Part shown: piece by piece, positions 1,677-4,632 of the stretch
Position numbering within the stretch: the stretch's first letter is position 1
Layout: each line of letters starts with the position of its first letter
NCBI GenBank assembly: GCA_949293175.1
Contig: CASFCI010000002.1
Span: 27,765 to 91,764, forward strand
From: an uncultured bacterium
Lineage (GTDB): Bacteria > Bacillota_I > Bacilli_A > RFN20 > CAG-826
Length of the DNA stretch: 64,000 nt
Reading direction: 5' to 3'
Made by a program: the position numbers and the translations under genes
The notes under the pieces: model-generated
What the model saw: only the letters and a program-made list of their open reading frames with translations
Databases searched by the model: none
What the model was told of the DNA's origin: nothing

Positions 1677-1687
1677 ACGTTAACTCC

Positions 1688-4468
1688 TTATGAAAGGGAC
1701 ATATACACGATAGTGCTATCGTAATCTTTCCCAATCTGGGCTCCATAGTAAATGACCAAATTATAGATTTTTCCTGCTTCAACCGGTATCGAGATTGTAT
1801 ATTCGGAATCACATCTAAATGATTGATTGTCAGTTATGTTTTGCACCTCGATAACGAAATGAGGATTGAAGTCACCATTAAGCGGTGCAACAGTAAGCAA
1901 CCCATTTTCAGCAACCCCAAATATGTAGCACTTATCCTGTACTATATCATATTCAACATACAGCTTAAGCCAATCTTCTTGCTGACTTTTCCGGATAGTC
2001 GGTAGCAATTCGCCTTGTTCTAGTAACAGCGAGGCGCCATTCTCGGATTTAACGCCAACATAATAGTAGGAGTCTGCCAAAGAACGAAAGAAAATAGAAG
2101 AGCCTTGGACACAATCAACTAGTGGGATTCGCCTTCCAAGTGAATCATAGACAATCAAAGCAAAGTCGTTCTCGTTCTTTGGCGTTGATGTCATAGCTAA
2201 GACGTCGTCCGAATCTGTCGAGAATCTAATTATTTCTCCATTAGTCGAGCAATTTCCGACATACATTGAACGATTTAACGAACCAATTTGATAGTCTTCT
2301 AGTACAATTTCGTTCGCCCTATTAACTTCCAATATCCCAGAAAATCCAGCACCGCAAAATCTATTTTCTAGGTTGTCAACAGAAAAACTATAAGATTTAC
2401 CACCTTCTAAATGAGCGGAATAGGATTTTGAAATATCCACATAAAATAGTCCTGAAGATCCTTCGCCGACTATTTCATCAATGTCTACCTCTAATGGTTT
2501 AAGAGAGTGCCCAGTTTGGACAAAATCAACCTCATCTGATTTGAGATGAATCTCTTGGCTGTTCAGATTTGATAAGGTGAACAGATAATCGCCTGTCTTC
2601 TCCGGCACGAAATTAAATCGATTCTTATATCCCGATCCACTAGCAAAACTATATCTATTGCCCGCAGATATGTTTTTTTCTCCTTTTTGCTGAATGCTAT
2701 CGCCATAGATTTGGCCAAAATTAATAGAAAAACTGGTTAATAAGTCGGGATTAGGATTAAAGATAGAAGAATTGTCTTCGTAAATGTGTCCTGTTAGTAG
2801 ATGCTCTACACCCAATGAGTAAGCTTCCCAACTCGACGAACCGGCTGGCACATCGCGAAAATCAATTTGGACGGCGCAGGCAAAATAATCATCGGGCGTT
2901 TTTAGAAAAACGTCTTTTTCGTTTTTGAATGATGCATAAGCCATTTTAGCGAAGTCGTTCCCTTTAGCGCTGTCAAAGTTTATTGCATTTGAGGTCCATG
3001 TGGCTTTTTCTTCAACCTCGTCCGAGTTTTCTTTCTGTTCCCGGCCTGAATCATTTGTAGCAGAGTCGCCTTCGCCTTCTACGGATTCAGCCCAGAAGTC
3101 AAATCCGGAATCGATAATCCAATTTAAAGCGTAATCTACGCCAAGTTGAAATGCAGTAGGCACTGGCAGGAATGATGAAAATAGATCGGCTGCAATCCCT
3201 AATGCCACTTTCACTTTATACCCGAAAGCAATCTGATCAAAATTTTTATAATGCCCGTGTCCCAAAACCTTATATGATGCTATACGTGCCCCATTATCGT
3301 TTTGCTCAGAATATTCCTCGTCGCCTGGATTTGGATGAACGCTTTGGCTGCCGTCATCATCTAAAGTCAAATACCTAATCTGAGTAATTGATTCTGGATT
3401 GGCAATGCACAAGTTATTTTCTGACCATTCAAAAACATAATCATGAAATTCGTTATAAGTAAAATTTCTGCTAAACGCAGGGGCAATACCAATTACCGGC
3501 CTTTGCCGATTGGAAAGCTTGCAGGAAATTACGTCAAAAATCAAAACGGAACTATGGTTGGATACCGTCTCGATGAAATATCCAAATTCTTTTCCAACCA
3601 CAATGGCGGATCCATCATTTACAAAAAGCGAGCGAGGAATAATTGACGTAATAGGATCATCGAAGAATTTTTGCGTGATTAATTCGGGGTTTGGTGTAAT
3701 GTAGCTAGCATATTTGCTAACCAATTGCCCAAAGTTATCTTTAATGCTCAGATAATAATCCAATGGCTCTTGATAATTAGTAATGTTAGGGTCATTAGCA
3801 AGCGGGATGGCATCCTCGTTTTTTGAAATGGGTGGGAAAACCGGAGGAACGACCGGCGGAAAGCCTATTCCGCCCAGGCTTCCAATATTGGCTTTTGCCG
3901 AGGCTTTGGCAATGGCAGAGGCTCGCTTTGTCCGTTTGATTAAGTCAAATTGAATATTGAAACTGCTTATCACCCTTTCGAACATTGGCAAGTCATTAGA
4001 AAGCGTGATAGAGGCAATCCTGATGCGATTGGCAAGGCCGTCGTCGATTTCGCAGTTAGAAGTATATAAATTACCATCGATATACCTAGAAATTTTTATA
4101 ATAGGAGTTCCAAACAAAGCCGGATCGACGAAATCGGCCGTTGATGGATTATCAATCAGCACCAGTTGAACGATGCCGTCTTTGTATTTAGAAGGGTCAA
4201 GGACATCGGCAACATAATAATTATTGCCTCCGACAACATACAGATAAAATTCGTAGTTATTGACAATAGTTTCGTCTAAAAGATTGCCATAATATGACCT
4301 TATATTGGAATTGCTTCTTTTTTCTTCCAGGTTTGAATAAGGGGTGTACGAAACGAAAGTTGAATTGTTGGTGGCGTCTTCTTCTCGCTTAGAAAAAGCG
4401 GTGGAGCTTGTGGCAATAGTTGAAGCAACGCCGAGAAGCAAAGAAACAGCAAAGACAATTCCCTTCAT
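1688..4468 (-). CDS. Large secreted protein of unknown function (about 926 aa), encoded on an AT-rich island.
   Basis: Long ORF with a predicted signal peptide MKGIVFAVSLLLGVASTIATSSTAFS. The ATG at 4468 is preferred over the upstream GTG at 4489. The gene's GC content is clearly lower than the roughly 62% GC of its flanks. No catalytic motif was recognised. Confidence 0.6.
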   Translation of the reverse strand: MKGIVFAVSLLLGVASTIATSSTAFSKREEDATNNSTFVSYTPYSNLEEKRSNSNIRSYYGNLLDETIVNNYEFYLYVVGGNNYYVADVLDPSKYKDGIVQLVLIDNPSTADFVDPALFGTPIIKISRYIDGNLYTSNCEIDDGLANRIRIASITLSNDLPMFERVISSFNIQFDLIKRTKRASAIAKASAKANIGSLGGIGFPPVVPPVFPPISKNEDAIPLANDPNITNYQEPLDYYLSIKDNFGQLVSKYASYITPNPELITQKFFDDPITSIIPRSLFVNDGSAIVVGKEFGYFIETVSNHSSVLIFDVISCKLSNRQRPVIGIAPAFSRNFTYNEFHDYVFEWSENNLCIANPESITQIRYLTLDDDGSQSVHPNPGDEEYSEQNDNGARIASYKVLGHGHYKNFDQIAFGYKVKVALGIAADLFSSFLPVPTAFQLGVDYALNWIIDSGFDFWAESVEGEGDSATNDSGREQKENSDEVEEKATWTSNAINFDSAKGNDFAKMAYASFKNEKDVFLKTPDDYFACAVQIDFRDVPAGSSSWEAYSLGVEHLLTGHIYEDNSSIFNPNPDLLTSFSINFGQIYGDSIQQKGEKNISAGNRYSFASGSGYKNRFNFVPEKTGDYLFTLSNLNSQEIHLKSDEVDFVQTGHSLKPLEVDIDEIVGEGSSGLFYVDISKSYSAHLEGGKSYSFSVDNLENRFCGAGFSGILEVNRANEIVLEDYQIGSLNRSMYVGNCSTNGEIIRFSTDSDDVLAMTSTPKNENDFALIVYDSLGRRIPLVDCVQGSSIFFRSLADSYYYVGVKSENGASLLLEQGELLPTIRKSQQEDWLKLYVEYDIVQDKCYIFGVAENGLLTVAPLNGDFNPHFVIEVQNITDNQSFRCDSEYTISIPVEAGKIYNLVIYYGAQIGKDYDSTIVYMSLS

Positions 4469-4632
4469 AGTCTCTAAATTCCTTTCCACTTTCCGAAAAA
4501 GAAAAGCTTTATCTTCATATAATCAAACCACCCGATAAAAGCAAATTCAGGAAACAGGCTACTCCTAAGGAGTACATCGAAAAAAGAAACTTTTTGAGAA
4601 ACCGATGTGGTTTACTGTTGTTTCCTTCACTA

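What the first reader, a model, noticed from the sequence alone, without database searches (positions are those of the whole stretch)
1680..4560. AT-rich island inside a 62%-GC chromosome, encoding one 926-aa secreted protein of unknown fold
Base composition shifts sharply to AT-rich at about 1680 and back at about 4560. The island carries a single long gene with a clean signal peptide, an AT-skewed codon usage unlike every neighbour, and no motif I can place. It is co-transcribed 11 nt upstream of a lipobox membrane protein whose paralog elsewhere in the window pairs with a different partner. This looks like a horizontally acquired secreted effector, adhesin or toxin cassette plugged into a resident membrane-protein module.
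Basis: seen in the sequence. Interest (0 to 1): 0.7.

Follow-up and report, generated by a model that had tools for sequence, protein, structure and literature searches.

The report
AT-rich secreted partner of MacB-like permease
The AT-rich island is real and holds one intact gene for a large exported protein of an undescribed family that always sits just upstream of a MacB/FtsX-type membrane protein; its odd composition looks like a lasting trait of the gene family, not proof of recent foreign origin.

Summary
Window 1677-4632 is 40% GC against 59.8 +/- 2.6% elsewhere (-7 SD). It carries one 926-aa gene, X1 (1688-4468, minus strand), with GC3 0.376 against 0.80-0.93 in core neighbours. Y1, a 554-aa membrane protein, starts 11 nt downstream.

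The organism is probably Candidatus (Allo)enteromonas pullicola, a 1.2-Mb chicken-gut Bacillus of order RFN20.

X1 belongs to an unannotated family of about 40 clusters of roughly 900-aa signal-peptide proteins. In all 13 homologous loci examined, a partner gene follows within 0-15 nt or overlaps. Six partners carry an ABC ATPase domain, and two of these also a sub-threshold FtsX match. Y1/Y2 are ATPase-less relatives, supported weakly by sequence and well by topology and synteny.

The species has two paralogous modules, X1-Y1 and X2-Y2.

Both X genes have GC3 of 0.38 and both Y genes 0.72-0.77. X is more AT-rich than its neighbourhood in every lineage examined. X1 polymorphisms show no GC-ward amelioration. 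No mobility hallmarks were found.

Recent horizontal transfer is neither required nor excluded. Function remains inferred because both structure models failed.

The parts
1688..4468 (-). X1: 926-aa exported protein of an undescribed family (P0001). GC 0.40, GC3 0.376.
   Evidence: ORF list; identical public gene call; composition; family found by exhaustive HMMER; no match in Pfam, NCBIfam, PHROGs or PDB sequences.
4394..4468 (-). Signal-peptide region of X1, about residues 1-25. There is no lipobox cysteine.
   Evidence: Sequence read directly; hydropathy peak of 1.93 at residue 3. No predictor was run.
3869..4279 (-). N-terminal domain, about residues 64-200. It is shared with X2 and other family members (motif YY.ADVL.P), is a mixed alpha/beta region, and ends in a long helix.
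   Evidence: Alignments A2-A4; AF2 pLDDT of 50-73 here, the better part of a poor model.
3803..3856 (-). Pro-rich linker GIGFPPVVPPVFPPISK, present only in X1 and X2.
   Evidence: Alignment A3.
3239..3796 (-). Conserved core of the family, residues 225-410. Motifs: D270..I273...IP278...F282...G286.....G292.E294(W/F)G296Y...T301; D312; N351-N352-x-C354-x2-N357-P358; N380-P-G-D-x2-Y386-x4-D391-x-G393.
   Evidence: Column conservation across 31 members. E294 and D312 change together to Lys in P0013 and P0019.
3068..3241 (-). Conserved, moderately hydrophobic helical hairpin, residues 410-467.
   Evidence: Hydropathy peak of 1.05-1.77 at the equivalent place in all 14 members tested, at least 1.36 in 13 of them; two helices in the AF2 model (low confidence).
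2324..2716 (-). Beta-sandwich repeat B1, residues 585-715.
   Evidence: hhalign B1-B2 probability 94%, E 1.3e-7. The best-modelled segment has pLDDT 59-79. Whole-model Foldseek hits to ColG/ColH collagen-binding and PPC domains have probability 1.0, but which repeat they align to was not reported.
2024..2326 (-). Beta-sandwich repeat B2, residues 715-815.
   Evidence: hhalign B1-B2 94% and B2-B3 60%.
1691..2026 (-). Beta-sandwich repeat B3, residues 815-926. It is retained in the internally deleted X2 allele P0002.
   Evidence: hhalign B2-B3 E 8.8e-5; BLASTP of P0001 against P0002.
1677..1687 (-). 11-nt spacer with an AGGAG ribosome-binding site between the X1 stop and the Y1 start.
   Evidence: Sequence. 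No terminator-like site lies between the genes.
12..1676 (-). Y1: 554-aa membrane protein. One N-terminal TM helix, an extracytoplasmic domain of about 395 aa, then three C-terminal TM helices. Inferred to be a divergent, ATPase-less MacB/FtsX-type permease. GC3 0.717.
   Evidence: Topology; motif YGSAPSKENEVAIPD...LTVSGVF aligned to the partners of X homologs (hhalign E 0.0016 and 5.4e-4); synteny; no direct Pfam FtsX hit.
4469..4632 (-). AT-rich intergenic region upstream of X1. It holds the palindrome TACTCCTTAGGAGTA at 4560-4574 and a T6/T7 tract. It is shared with the X1-less strain L106 as far as about 28 nt before the X1 ATG.
   Evidence: Sequence; strain alignment A9; block boundaries. 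No strong sigma-70 match.
10820..10915 (+). Remnant of X2. The first 84 nt (signal peptide) are joined to the 3'-terminal few codons and stop of X2, leaving a 31-codon ORF. About 2.6 kb is deleted relative to strain L106.
   Evidence: Sequence; alignment to L009; tblastn P0002 1-31, 90% identity; blastn block structure against L106.
10937..12553 (+). Y2: 538-aa paralog of Y1 with the same 1+3 TM topology. GC3 0.772.
   Evidence: BLASTP 31% identity, E 5e-27; topology. A member of its 90% cluster is named Candidatus Enteromonas/Alloenteromonas pullicola.

Best explanation
X1 is an intact gene under purifying selection. It encodes a Sec-exported, multi-domain protein of about 900 aa from an uncharacterised family confined to small-genome gut Bacilli (order RFN20 and relatives). 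The protein has a signal peptide, an N-terminal domain, a conserved core, a hydrophobic helical hairpin, a middle region and three tandem beta-sandwich repeats that resemble PPC/collagen-binding domains.

X1 is the cognate extracytoplasmic partner of the MacB/FtsX-type (type VII ABC) membrane protein encoded immediately downstream. Here that partner is Y1, an ATPase-less form.

Inferred mechanism: X is exported by Sec. It docks on, or is held, released or conformationally driven by, the large external domain of Y. It uses its C-terminal repeats to bind an external polymer or surface.

The module is accessory and strain-variable. The species has two paralogous copies, X1-Y1 and X2-Y2, and the X genes are repeatedly deleted or interrupted while the Y genes stay.

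The AT-richness is a persistent trait of X genes. They do not feel the GC-favouring force that shapes the rest of this 57-60% GC genome, possibly because presence/absence-polymorphic genes escape GC-biased gene conversion or codon selection. It is not a time stamp of recent transfer.

Shown: composition, family membership, conserved adjacency, paralogy, strain variation, substitution spectrum. Inferred: the X-Y physical interaction, a binding function, and the reason for AT-richness.
For: Composition:
- X1 has GC3 of 0.376 against 0.80-0.93 in core genes and 0.717 in Y1. The island lies at -7 SD.

Family:
- Exhaustive HMMER finds 40 representatives, mostly 870-930 aa with N-terminal hydrophobic leaders, aligned over their full length.

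Adjacency:
- In 13 of 13 loci examined an X-like gene is followed, within 0-15 nt or by an overlap, by a partner gene. The loci are L090/L093, L091/L094/L097, L092, L095/L096, L098, L100-L102, L110 and L111.
- Six partners carry an ABC_tran domain (L091, L095, L098, L101, L110). Two of these also match Pfam FtsX, below its curated cut-off (L091, L095).
- The other partners are ATPase-less 1+3 TM proteins or degenerate fragments (L092, L100, L102, L111; L090/L093).
- The partners' ATPase domain is closest to YtrE, MacB, LolD and BceA.

Y1/Y2 as relatives of those partners:
- Same topology.
- Same motifs at the start of the external domain (hhalign E 0.0016 and 5.4e-4; negative controls E of 0.18 or more).

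Paralogy:
- X1 and full-length X2 (P0054, 909 aa) are 38% identical over 868 aa. Both have GC3 of 0.38.
- Y1 and Y2 are 31% identical, with GC3 of 0.72 and 0.77.

AT-richness as a family trait:
- X has lower GC3 than the pooled neighbouring genes in all 9 lineages where this was computed, by 0.06 to 0.51.
- X has lower GC3 than its own partner in 11 of 13 comparisons, including a GC-rich distant member (0.64 against 0.86).

No amelioration:
- Polarised singletons at third codon positions are S>W 20 and W>S 10 in X1, 108 and 25 in core genes, and 26 and 16 in Y1.
- Under core per-site rates X1 should show 68% W>S. It shows 33% (binomial P = 8e-5).

Gene status and strain variation:
- dN/dS is 0.23-0.29, so the gene is functional.
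- X2 is deleted here and in most strains, and internally deleted in L009. X2-Y2 is absent in L001, L006 and L107.
- X1 is absent in L106 and interrupted at codon 410 in L103-L105.

Other:
- The three C-terminal repeats are homologous to each other and Foldseek matches ColG/ColH CBD and PPC domains.
- No mobility signatures and no phage or plasmid relatives.
Against: - Y1 and Y2 give no direct Pfam FtsX or MacB_PCD hit. Their link to the ABC-fused partners rests on a weak profile match (probability 16-30%) plus topology and synteny.
- No ATPase of this type lies in the 64-kb window, so an energised mechanism is unproven here.
- Both AF2 models are poor (pLDDT 44.5 and 39.0). The fold assignments are therefore tentative, and the core domain remains of unknown fold.
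- X1's synonymous divergence among alleles (0.03-0.04) is 3-5 times lower than that of its flanks.
- Related genera have tm232 and rpmB adjacent, with neither X nor Y between them.
- Strain L106 has an unrelated 89-nt filler in place of X1. This fits a later arrival of X1 as well as it fits a deletion.
- The singleton test uses few sites (30 in X1), metagenome assemblies, and minor-allele polarisation. The age of polymorphisms may differ between X1 and core genes.
- The proposed cause of AT-richness, escape from gBGC or codon selection, is untested.
Confidence: 0.55

Rival explanations
1. X1 alone was recently acquired by horizontal transfer from a low-GC donor, plausibly a related 30-45% GC gut Bacillus that carries the same family. 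It inserted between the resident promoter region and Y1. Its AT-richness is simply un-ameliorated donor composition.
For: - Composition boundaries are sharp and coincide with the gene ends. Most of the shift is at GC3.
- X1's GC3 (0.376) lies near the range of X homologs in 41-48% GC hosts, 0.29-0.36.
- The site between tm232 and rpmB is empty in eight related genera. In L016 it holds a transposase insertion, so it is an insertion hot spot.
- Strain L106 has Y1 but no X1.
- dS among X1 alleles is 0.03-0.04, against 0.06-0.25 for Y1 and core genes.
- A block of about 6 kb is near-identical across otherwise diverged strains.
Against: - X2, the paralog at the second module, has the same GC3 (0.380) and is X1's closest relative. 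Y1 and Y2 are likewise each other's closest relatives. Two independent imports of sister genes, each landing upstream of paralogous resident genes, is unparsimonious.
- No candidate donor was found. The nearest relative outside the species is at most 29% identical among about 15 billion proteins.
- No integrase, tRNA or flanking repeats. No phage, plasmid or viral-contig relatives.
- No W>S excess in X1 polymorphisms.
- X is more AT-rich than its neighbourhood in low-GC hosts too, where transfer would not be needed to explain it.
- The near-identical block is partly an ascertainment effect, because contigs were retrieved by exact X1 protein sequence. Other alleles differ by 2-2.4% at the amino-acid level.
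Confidence: 0.22
2. X is cargo, not a co-worker. X is a secreted toxin or effector, and the conserved hydrophobic hairpin keeps it in the membrane after Sec export. The MacB-like Y extracts and releases it, in the way Lol or MacB extract their substrates. ATPase-less Y forms would borrow an ATPase encoded elsewhere.
For: - A moderately hydrophobic helical hairpin lies at the same place in all members tested.
- Coupling to MacB/LolD-type ATPase-permease fusions is strict.
- Translational coupling or overlap occurs in some loci, for example the 4-nt overlap in L098.
- From established knowledge, type VII ABC systems extract membrane-embedded substrates, as in LolCDE and MacB. YbbAP-TesA is described in the abstract listed (PMC12646458).
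Against: - The hairpin's hydropathy (1.05-1.77) is borderline for a TM segment, and it could be a buried core element.
- Several lineages, including this one, have no fused or adjacent ATPase.
- No toxin-like domain was detected.
- The three C-terminal binding-type repeats suit an adhesin or binding protein as well.
Confidence: 0.15
3. X1 is a decaying, functionless remnant. AT-richness reflects relaxed selection under AT-biased mutation in a gene on its way to loss.
For: - X genes are frequently deleted, truncated or interrupted among strains.
- The substitution spectrum is AT-biased.
- The family evolves fast: members of different 50% clusters are at most 45% identical.
Against: - The 926-codon ORF is intact in at least 20 contigs.
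- dN/dS is 0.23-0.29, not about 1.
- The full-length architecture is conserved across about 40 diverged clusters.
- The genome is only 1.2 Mb (PMC8035907), which would not keep 2.8 kb of junk for long.
Confidence: 0.05

Closest known systems
FtsEX with PcsB, CwlO, RipC or EnvC (type VII ABC mechanotransmission complexes with an extracytoplasmic partner)
   Same: A MacB/FtsX-topology membrane protein with a large external domain is genetically coupled to a Sec-exported partner that presumably docks on that domain. The ATPase can be a separate polypeptide.
   Different: X has no coiled-coil plus CHAP, NlpC/P60 or LytM architecture and no hydrolase signature. It is three to four times larger than those partners. 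Most family partners are ATPase-permease fusions like MacB, not FtsE plus FtsX. Y1 and Y2 have no detectable FtsX Pfam match. The module is accessory and strain-variable, not essential for division.
MacB (MacAB-TolC), LolCDE-LolA and YbbAP-TesA (other type VII ABC systems)
   Same: The partners of X homologs have an N-terminal ATPase closest to YtrE, MacB, LolD and BceA, fused to a 4-TM permease with a large external domain. The system has a dedicated extracytoplasmic protein partner.
   Different: The host is a monoderm Bacillus, so there is no outer-membrane conduit. X is unrelated to MacA, LolA or TesA. The external domains are much larger (300-570 aa) and unalignable except for the first motif.
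PPC / collagen-binding beta-sandwich domains of clostridial collagenases (ColG s3a/s3b, ColH s3; Pfam PF04151)
   Same: Three tandem repeats of about 110 aa lie at the C-terminus of a secreted protein and carry the F-P-x3-G-x-Y type motif. Foldseek probability is 1.0, TM-score to target 0.53-0.72, against 1nqj, 5sv5, 5iku and 3jqw.
   Different: There is no Pfam PPC hit and the model is low-confidence (pLDDT 44.5). The N-terminal 580 residues have no peptidase or other known domain.
Classical genomic island or horizontally transferred cassette
   Same: A strong, sharply bounded compositional anomaly. Presence/absence polymorphism among strains. An empty site in related genera.
   Different: There are no mobility genes, tRNA target or flanking repeats. 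The anomaly covers exactly one gene of a two-gene cognate module. A paralogous module shows the same split composition. No amelioration signal is seen.

Membership tests
MacB/FtsX-type (type VII ABC) permease - applies to Y1 and Y2 | Four-TM topology: TM1, a large extracytoplasmic domain, then TM2-TM4 at the C-terminus | tested here: met
   Hydropathy places Y1's TM helices at about 3-29, 426-444, 464-482 and 510-528. Y2 and all partners of X homologs show the same 1+3 pattern.
MacB/FtsX-type (type VII ABC) permease - applies to Y1 and Y2 | Significant match to Pfam FtsX (PF02687) or MacB_PCD (PF12704) | tested here: not met
   Y1 and Y2 give no hit even at E up to 10. Partners of X homologs reach FtsX E 7e-5 (23.3 bits against a cut-off of 25.5) and E 0.0066.
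MacB/FtsX-type (type VII ABC) permease - applies to Y1 and Y2 | Homology to proteins that are demonstrably ABC_tran plus FtsX fusions | tested here: inconclusive
   hhalign of the Y profile against the partner profile gives E 0.0016 (probability 16%) and, on trimmed N-terminal external domains, E 5.4e-4 (probability 30%). The match falls on the G-x-x-P-x3-(N/D)-E-(V/I) ... L-T-(I/V)-x-G motif. Mismatched-segment controls give E of 0.18 or more. The AF2 model of Y1 is unusable, pLDDT 39.
MacB/FtsX-type (type VII ABC) permease - applies to Y1 and Y2 | Cognate MacB/LolD/FtsE-type ATPase, fused or adjacent | tested here: not met
   Y1 and Y2 have no ATPase domain and tblastn finds none in the 64-kb window. 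It is met in homologous loci L091, L095, L098, L101 and L110. An ATPase elsewhere in the genome could not be checked.
Horizontally acquired genomic island | Composition and codon usage deviating from the host | tested here: met
   GC 0.40 against 0.598 (-7 SD). GC3 0.376 against 0.80-0.93.
Horizontally acquired genomic island | Mobility hallmarks: integrase or transposase, tRNA target, flanking direct repeats | tested here: not met
   No tRNA in the window. No repeats at the island edges. Neighbouring genes are housekeeping.
Horizontally acquired genomic island | Absent from close relatives (empty site) | tested here: met
   tm232 and rpmB are adjacent in L010, L011, L013, L014, L015, L017, L026, L027 and L034. 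Strain L106 lacks X1. Those genera lack Y1 as well, so the whole module is lineage-specific, not X1 alone.
Horizontally acquired genomic island | Identifiable donor-like close homolog, or an amelioration signal (W>S excess) | tested here: not met
   The nearest relative outside the species is at most 29% identical. At third positions X1 shows S>W 20 against W>S 10, P = 8e-5 against core rates.
PPC / collagen-binding-domain beta-sandwich repeats (C-terminal part of X1) | Sequence-profile match to PF04151 or related families | tested here: not met
   No Pfam hit for X1. One family member gives weak hits to PA14 and Wzt_C.
PPC / collagen-binding-domain beta-sandwich repeats (C-terminal part of X1) | Structural similarity of tandem beta-sandwich units of about 110 aa | tested here: inconclusive
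   The internal triplication is shown by hhalign at 94%, 60% and 17%. Foldseek probability is 1.0 to ColG/ColH CBD and B. anthracis PPC, but the model has a mean pLDDT of 44.5, with 59-79 in its best-modelled stretch (residues 590-650).
FtsEX-regulated cell-wall hydrolase partners (PcsB/CwlO/RipC/EnvC type) | N-terminal coiled coil plus a C-terminal CHAP, NlpC/P60 or LytM domain | tested here: not met
   No such domains in X1 or in 30 relatives. Only one long helix, residues 161-193, appears in a low-confidence model.
   Y1 has A-S-G-C at residues 20-23. The paralog Y2 has no Cys there, and homologous partners use this segment as TM1, after an ATPase domain in the fused forms.

The most novel reading that the evidence does not exclude
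X genes are a natural within-operon control showing that the high GC of this genome is actively maintained, by GC-biased gene conversion or by selection, and not by mutation bias. One gene class, a presence/absence-polymorphic and fast-evolving exported protein, escapes that force. It sits near the AT-rich mutational equilibrium for long periods, while the gene 11 nt downstream in what looks like the same operon tracks the genome. In parallel, X-Y would be a new type VII ABC partner system, in which a MacB-like permease, often without an ATPase, handles a 900-aa protein that carries a membrane-active hairpin.
Probability: 0.25. Interest if true: 0.75.

Novelty: new variant of a known kind. Interest (0 to 1): 0.5.

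Why it matters
There are two reasons.

First, it defines an unannotated protein family: about 40 clusters at 50% identity, with no match in Pfam, NCBIfam or PDB sequences. The family is strictly coupled to MacB/FtsX-type membrane proteins in small-genome gut Bacilli (RFN20 and relatives). These uncultured organisms are abundant in animal guts and their surface biology is essentially unknown. If X docks on Y, this adds a new kind of extracytoplasmic client to the type VII ABC mechanotransmission paradigm.

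Second, it is a cautionary and potentially informative case for compositional detection of horizontal transfer. The GC3 contrast of 0.38 against 0.85 is confined to one gene of a cognate pair. It is duplicated in a paralogous pair, repeated in milder form in every host lineage, and shows no amelioration signal. That argues that AT-richness can be a stable property of a gene class and not only a clock for recent arrival. It also offers a tractable system for asking what keeps bacterial genomes GC-rich.

Tried and rejected
- Word-indexed homology search with X1 found only itself and X2.
A third, with P0022, gave six members.
- GTDB representative genomes hold no X1 relative.
It succeeded with seven closer sequences.
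- Pfam, NCBIfam, PHROGs and PDB-sequence searches of X1, X2, Y1, Y2 and the family profile gave nothing significant.
- AF2 of X1 with the only eight sequences the tool would accept gave pLDDT 44.5. AF2 of Y1 with Y2 gave pLDDT 39. The Y1 model was not fold-searched because the result would be meaningless.
- Foldseek on the X1 model is trusted only for the repeated beta-sandwich hits. The matches to SIDT, neuropilin and sialidase were discarded (TM-score to query at most 0.11).
- Global hhalign of Y against the trimmed partners failed. Only local alignment on the N-terminal external-domain motif gives a signal.
- A Cys-His catalytic pair in the core (C354, H378) was considered and rejected. C354 is replaced in 4 of 31 members, and H378 is not conserved outside the X1 subclade.
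- A phage or plasmid origin was rejected.
- Edge repeats and a tRNA target are absent.
Calling it an IS element remains a guess.
- A sweep reading of the near-identical 6-kb block was tempered. Contigs had been retrieved by exact X1 protein sequence, and other alleles 2-2.4% apart exist.

Full report
**1. The observation**

A sliding GC profile shows a drop from about 0.59 to 0.37-0.45 between roughly 1680 and 4600, with a return to about 0.58-0.60 after 4600. In 1-kb windows the island reads 0.397-0.415. The 119 windows outside it average 0.598 (sd 0.026, minimum 0.508), so the island lies 7.0-7.7 SD below the rest.

One ORF fills the island, at 1688-4489 on the minus strand. The ATG at 4468 follows a GGAAAGG-type ribosome-binding site and gives 926 aa. 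This is the same product as the public gene call P0001. I call it X1.

Most of the shift is at synonymous sites:
- X1 has GC1/GC2/GC3 of 0.467/0.364/0.376.
- The seven core neighbours have GC3 of 0.80-0.93.
- The downstream gene Y1 (12-1676, minus strand, 554 aa) has GC3 of 0.717.

X1's stop and Y1's ATG are 11 nt apart, with an AGGAG site between them. No terminator-like site lies between the genes.

**2. Organism and setting**

A member of Y2's 90%-identity cluster carries the name Candidatus Enteromonas (now Alloenteromonas) pullicola. The species description gives GTDB order RFN20, family CAG-826, 57.4% GC and a 1.2-Mb genome from chicken faeces (PMC8035907).

The gene order is rsmB-rlmN-PP2C-kinase-rpe-tm232-[X1-Y1]-rpmB-glgCDA. 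Relatives found through RlmN are uncultured gut Bacilli whose local GC ranges from 0.25 to 0.60. The two closest (72-73% RlmN identity) are at 0.35.

In nine related genomes tm232 and rpmB are adjacent, with neither X nor Y between them. In L016 the same gap holds a transposase, an AAA_14/DUF4143 gene and a lipoprotein. The whole X1-Y1 module is therefore lineage-specific DNA, sitting in an intergenic site that also accepts other insertions.

**3. What X1 is**

The word-indexed search finds only X1 itself and one 516-aa relative. Exhaustive HMMER against 1.84 billion representatives finds 40 proteins at E of 0.001 or better. Most are 870-930 aa, have N-terminal hydrophobic leaders, and are 24-29% identical to X1. 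They align over their full length.

None of X1, X2 or the family profile matches Pfam, NCBIfam, PHROGs or any PDB sequence at a meaningful level.

The architecture, read from the alignments and a weak AF2 model, is:
- a signal peptide;
- an N-terminal domain, residues about 64-200;
- a Pro-rich linker found only in X1 and X2;
- a conserved core, residues 225-410;
- a moderately hydrophobic helical hairpin, residues 410-467, present at the same place in all 14 members tested (hydropathy peak 1.05-1.77, at least 1.36 in 13 of them);
- a middle region;
- three homologous repeats of about 110 aa, with hhalign probabilities of 94% for B1-B2, 60% for B2-B3 and 17% for B1-B3.

The core carries these motifs: D270..I273...IP...F282...G286.....G292-x-E294-W/F-G296-Y...T301, D312, NN-x-C354-x2-NP358, and N380-P-G-D-x2-Y386-x4-D391-x-G393.

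The AF2 model, built with the only eight sequences the tool would accept, is poor: mean pLDDT 44.5, and 59-79 in its best-modelled stretch, residues 590-650. Its only domain-level Foldseek matches with probability 1.0 are the collagen-binding and PPC beta-sandwiches of ColG, ColH and B. anthracis collagenase, with TM-score to target of 0.53-0.72. This agrees with the F-P-x3-G-x-Y motifs in the repeats.

In the core, the invariant residues are mostly Gly, Thr and Ile. C354 is replaced in 4 of 31 members and H378 is clade-specific. E294 and D312 change together to Lys in two members. This looks more like a structural or ion-binding site than a catalytic centre. I therefore favour a binding or adhesive role over an enzymatic one, but that is inference.

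**4. The partner**

I obtained 13 loci encoding X homologs, ten from JGI and ENA metagenomes and three more through exact-protein look-up, plus L110 and L111. In every one, the X-like gene is followed by a partner gene on the same strand. The gap is 0-15 nt, or the genes overlap by 4 nt.

The partners are of three kinds:
- Six carry an ABC_tran domain (L091, L095, L098, L101, L110). Two of these also match Pfam FtsX below its curated cut-off (L091 and L095).
- Others are ATPase-less proteins with one N-terminal and three C-terminal TM helices (L092, L100, L102, L111).
- In L090 and L093 the partner is a degenerate fragment.

A profile of the partners hits PDB ATPases in the order YtrE, MJ0796, MacB, LolD, BceA and FtsE. 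That is the type VII ABC group.

Y1 and Y2 have the same topology: TM1, an external domain of about 390 aa, then three TM helices. They also share the motifs at the start of the external domain. Y1 reads YGSAPSKENEVAIPD ... LTVSGVF, where the partners read G-x-x-P-x2-D/N-N/K-E-I-M-L-T-D ... L-T-I-x-G-I-L-D-T.

Profile-profile comparison gives E 0.0016 (probability 16%). On trimmed segments it gives E 5.4e-4 (probability 30%), against E of 0.18 or more for mismatched segment pairs. Y1 and Y2 give no direct Pfam FtsX hit, and the AF2 model of Y1 is unusable at pLDDT 39.

I therefore file Y as works like, and is probably descended from, a MacB/FtsX-type permease that has lost its ATPase. Sequence-level membership is unproven. 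No ATPase of this type lies in the window. Y1's apparent lipobox (ASGC) is absent from Y2 and from the partners, where the segment serves as TM1.

**5. Two modules and much strain variation**

The 516-aa relative P0002 lies directly upstream of the Y2 ortholog in strain L009 and is itself AT-rich, at GC 0.36-0.42. Its cluster contains a 909-aa form, P0054. This is full-length X2, 38% identical to X1 over 868 residues, with GC3 of 0.380. P0002 is an internal-deletion derivative that keeps residues 1-425 and 806-909.

In the window, X2 is reduced to a 31-codon ORF at 10820-10915. It joins the first 84 nt of X2 to the 3'-terminal few codons and stop, a clean loss of about 2.6 kb relative to L106.

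The same scar is present in six other strains. Strains L001, L006 and L107 lack X2-Y2 altogether, and L004 and L008 have an IS beside Y2.

Conversely, strain L106 has X2-Y2 intact and keeps Y1 but has no X1. An unrelated 89-nt segment at 53% GC replaces window 1677-4496.

In Brazilian samples X1 is interrupted after codon 410 by foreign sequence, and three assemblies break about 70 nt into it. A 76-aa fragment, P0006, matches only the last roughly 60-80 residues of X1, behind an unrelated N-terminus. The X genes are repeatedly lost while the Y genes persist.

**6. Is the AT-richness a mark of recent transfer?**

Several results argue against that reading:
- Both X paralogs have the same low GC3 (0.376 and 0.380), while both Y paralogs are host-like (0.717 and 0.772). 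X1 and X2 are each other's closest relatives, and so are Y1 and Y2. The simplest history is duplication of an X-Y unit followed by long co-residence.
- X has lower GC3 than its neighbours in all nine lineages where I could compute it, by 0.06-0.21 in low-GC hosts and by 0.51 here. It is lower than its own partner in 11 of 13 comparisons. That includes a distant GC-rich member at 0.64 against 0.86.
- X1 alleles from 12 strains show no amelioration. Singleton changes at third positions are S>W 20 and W>S 10 in X1, 108 and 25 in seven core genes, and 26 and 16 in Y1. Given base content, core per-site rates predict 68% W>S in X1. The observed 33% has binomial P = 8e-5.
- There are no repeats, tRNA or integrase at the edges, no relatives in phage, plasmid or viral-contig collections, and no candidate donor. 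The nearest relative outside the species is at most 29% identical.

Other results keep transfer alive:
- Other genera have an empty site.
- Strain L106 lacks X1.
- A tract of about 6 kb, from the 3' part of tm232 through X1 and Y1 to rpmB, is near-identical among eight strains whose flanks differ by 1-8%. This is partly an ascertainment effect, because the contigs were retrieved by exact X1 protein sequence.
- Synonymous divergence between the most different X1 alleles is 0.03-0.04, against 0.06-0.14 for Y1 and 0.05-0.25 for core genes.

The low dS fits a later arrival or a sweep. It also fits the smaller effective population of a gene that only some strains carry. dN/dS of 0.23-0.29 shows that X1 is under purifying selection and is not junk.

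**7. Best explanation and rivals**

My preferred reading has confidence of about 0.55. X1 is the exported, probably ligand-binding partner of a MacB/FtsX-like membrane protein. It belongs to an accessory, strain-variable two-gene module that is old in this lineage. X genes are AT-rich as a class because they escape the GC-favouring force acting on the rest of the genome. Escape from GC-biased gene conversion by presence/absence-polymorphic genes is my suggested cause, and it is untested.

The rivals are:
- X as a membrane-retained cargo or toxin that Y extracts and releases (0.15). This is a variant of the mechanism, not of the classification.
- X as a decaying remnant (0.05).

**8. Comparison with known systems and novelty**

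The closest known systems are the type VII ABC complexes with dedicated extracytoplasmic partners. Examples are FtsEX with PcsB, CwlO, RipC or EnvC, LolCDE-LolA, MacAB, and YbbAP-TesA; the last is described in the abstract listed (PMC12646458).

The shared features are the permease topology, the ATPase type in most family members, and the genetic coupling to an exported protein.

The differences are:
- X is an undescribed family with no hydrolase or adaptor domain.
- The external domains of the permeases are very large.
- Several lineages, including this one, have lost the ATPase.
- The module is dispensable.

I rate it a new variant of a known kind. Interest is moderate (0.5). The function is unresolved, but the family is new, and the within-operon compositional split with no amelioration signal is unusual and testable.

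Noticed in passing
window 10820-10915 (+), with the flanking intergenic region 10538-10936: This second, smaller AT-rich dip (GC 0.42-0.51) is the scar of a deleted X2 gene. A 31-codon ORF keeps the X2 signal peptide joined out of frame to the 3'-terminal few codons and stop. The same scar occurs in six other strains.
   Followed up: yes
L106:1589-1677 (strain lacking X1), equivalent to window 1677-4496: In one strain X1 is replaced by an unrelated 89-nt segment at 53% GC that supplies a GGGAGGGG ribosome-binding site for Y1. It could be the ancestral pre-X1 state or the residue of a deletion; I could not tell which.
   Followed up: partly
L103:5229-5303, also L104 and L105; equivalent to window about 3238 (X1 codon 410): An X1 allele seen in at least 10 contigs from Brazilian samples is interrupted after codon 410 by foreign sequence. 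Every assembly breaks about 70 nt into it, which suggests a repeated element.
   Followed up: partly
L016:14342-19308: In a related genus the same tm232-rpmB intergenic site holds a 402-aa transposase-like ORF, an ATPase resembling the AAA_14/DUF4143 genes seen in L001, and a Cys-rich lipoprotein. These are judged from the translations only, without a domain scan. The site appears to be an insertion hot spot across the clade.
   Followed up: partly
window 4560-4574 and 4580-4586 (minus-strand reading), upstream of X1: A perfect palindrome, TACTCCTTAGGAGTA, is conserved (with loop changes) in all strains, including the X1-less one. Just upstream of it lies a T6/T7 length-variable tract (L004 and L008 have T7). 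It may be the tm232 terminator or an operator for the X1-Y1 promoter.
   Followed up: no
window 12620-15742 (-): A 1040-aa protein with Glyco_hydro81C and Bact_surface_Ig-like domains, a putative beta-1,3-glucanase. This is a large investment for a 1.2-Mb genome. It has ordinary host composition (GC3 0.87), which shows that long proteins are not AT-rich here as a rule. Whether it is exported was not checked.
   Followed up: no
window 5965-6840 (-) and 8641-9966 (-): The PrkC-like kinase is only 291 aa, a kinase domain with no TM or PASTA region. The RsmB-like protein scores far below the family cut-offs (40 bits against 319). Both are consistent with a fast-evolving, reduced genome.
   Followed up: no
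loci L010-L089 (RlmN neighbourhoods of related Bacilli): Local GC in this clade spans 0.25 to 0.60 with conserved gene order. The two closest relatives of the 60% GC window (RlmN 72-73% identical) are at 0.35. GC content has therefore shifted very fast in this group.
   Followed up: partly
L110:8001-13007: A distant X-family member from a JGI metagenome sits in a GC-heterogeneous region. X has GC3 of 0.64, its ABC partner 0.86, and neighbours 0.49-0.76. The X-below-Y rule therefore holds even where X is not AT-rich in absolute terms.
   Followed up: partly
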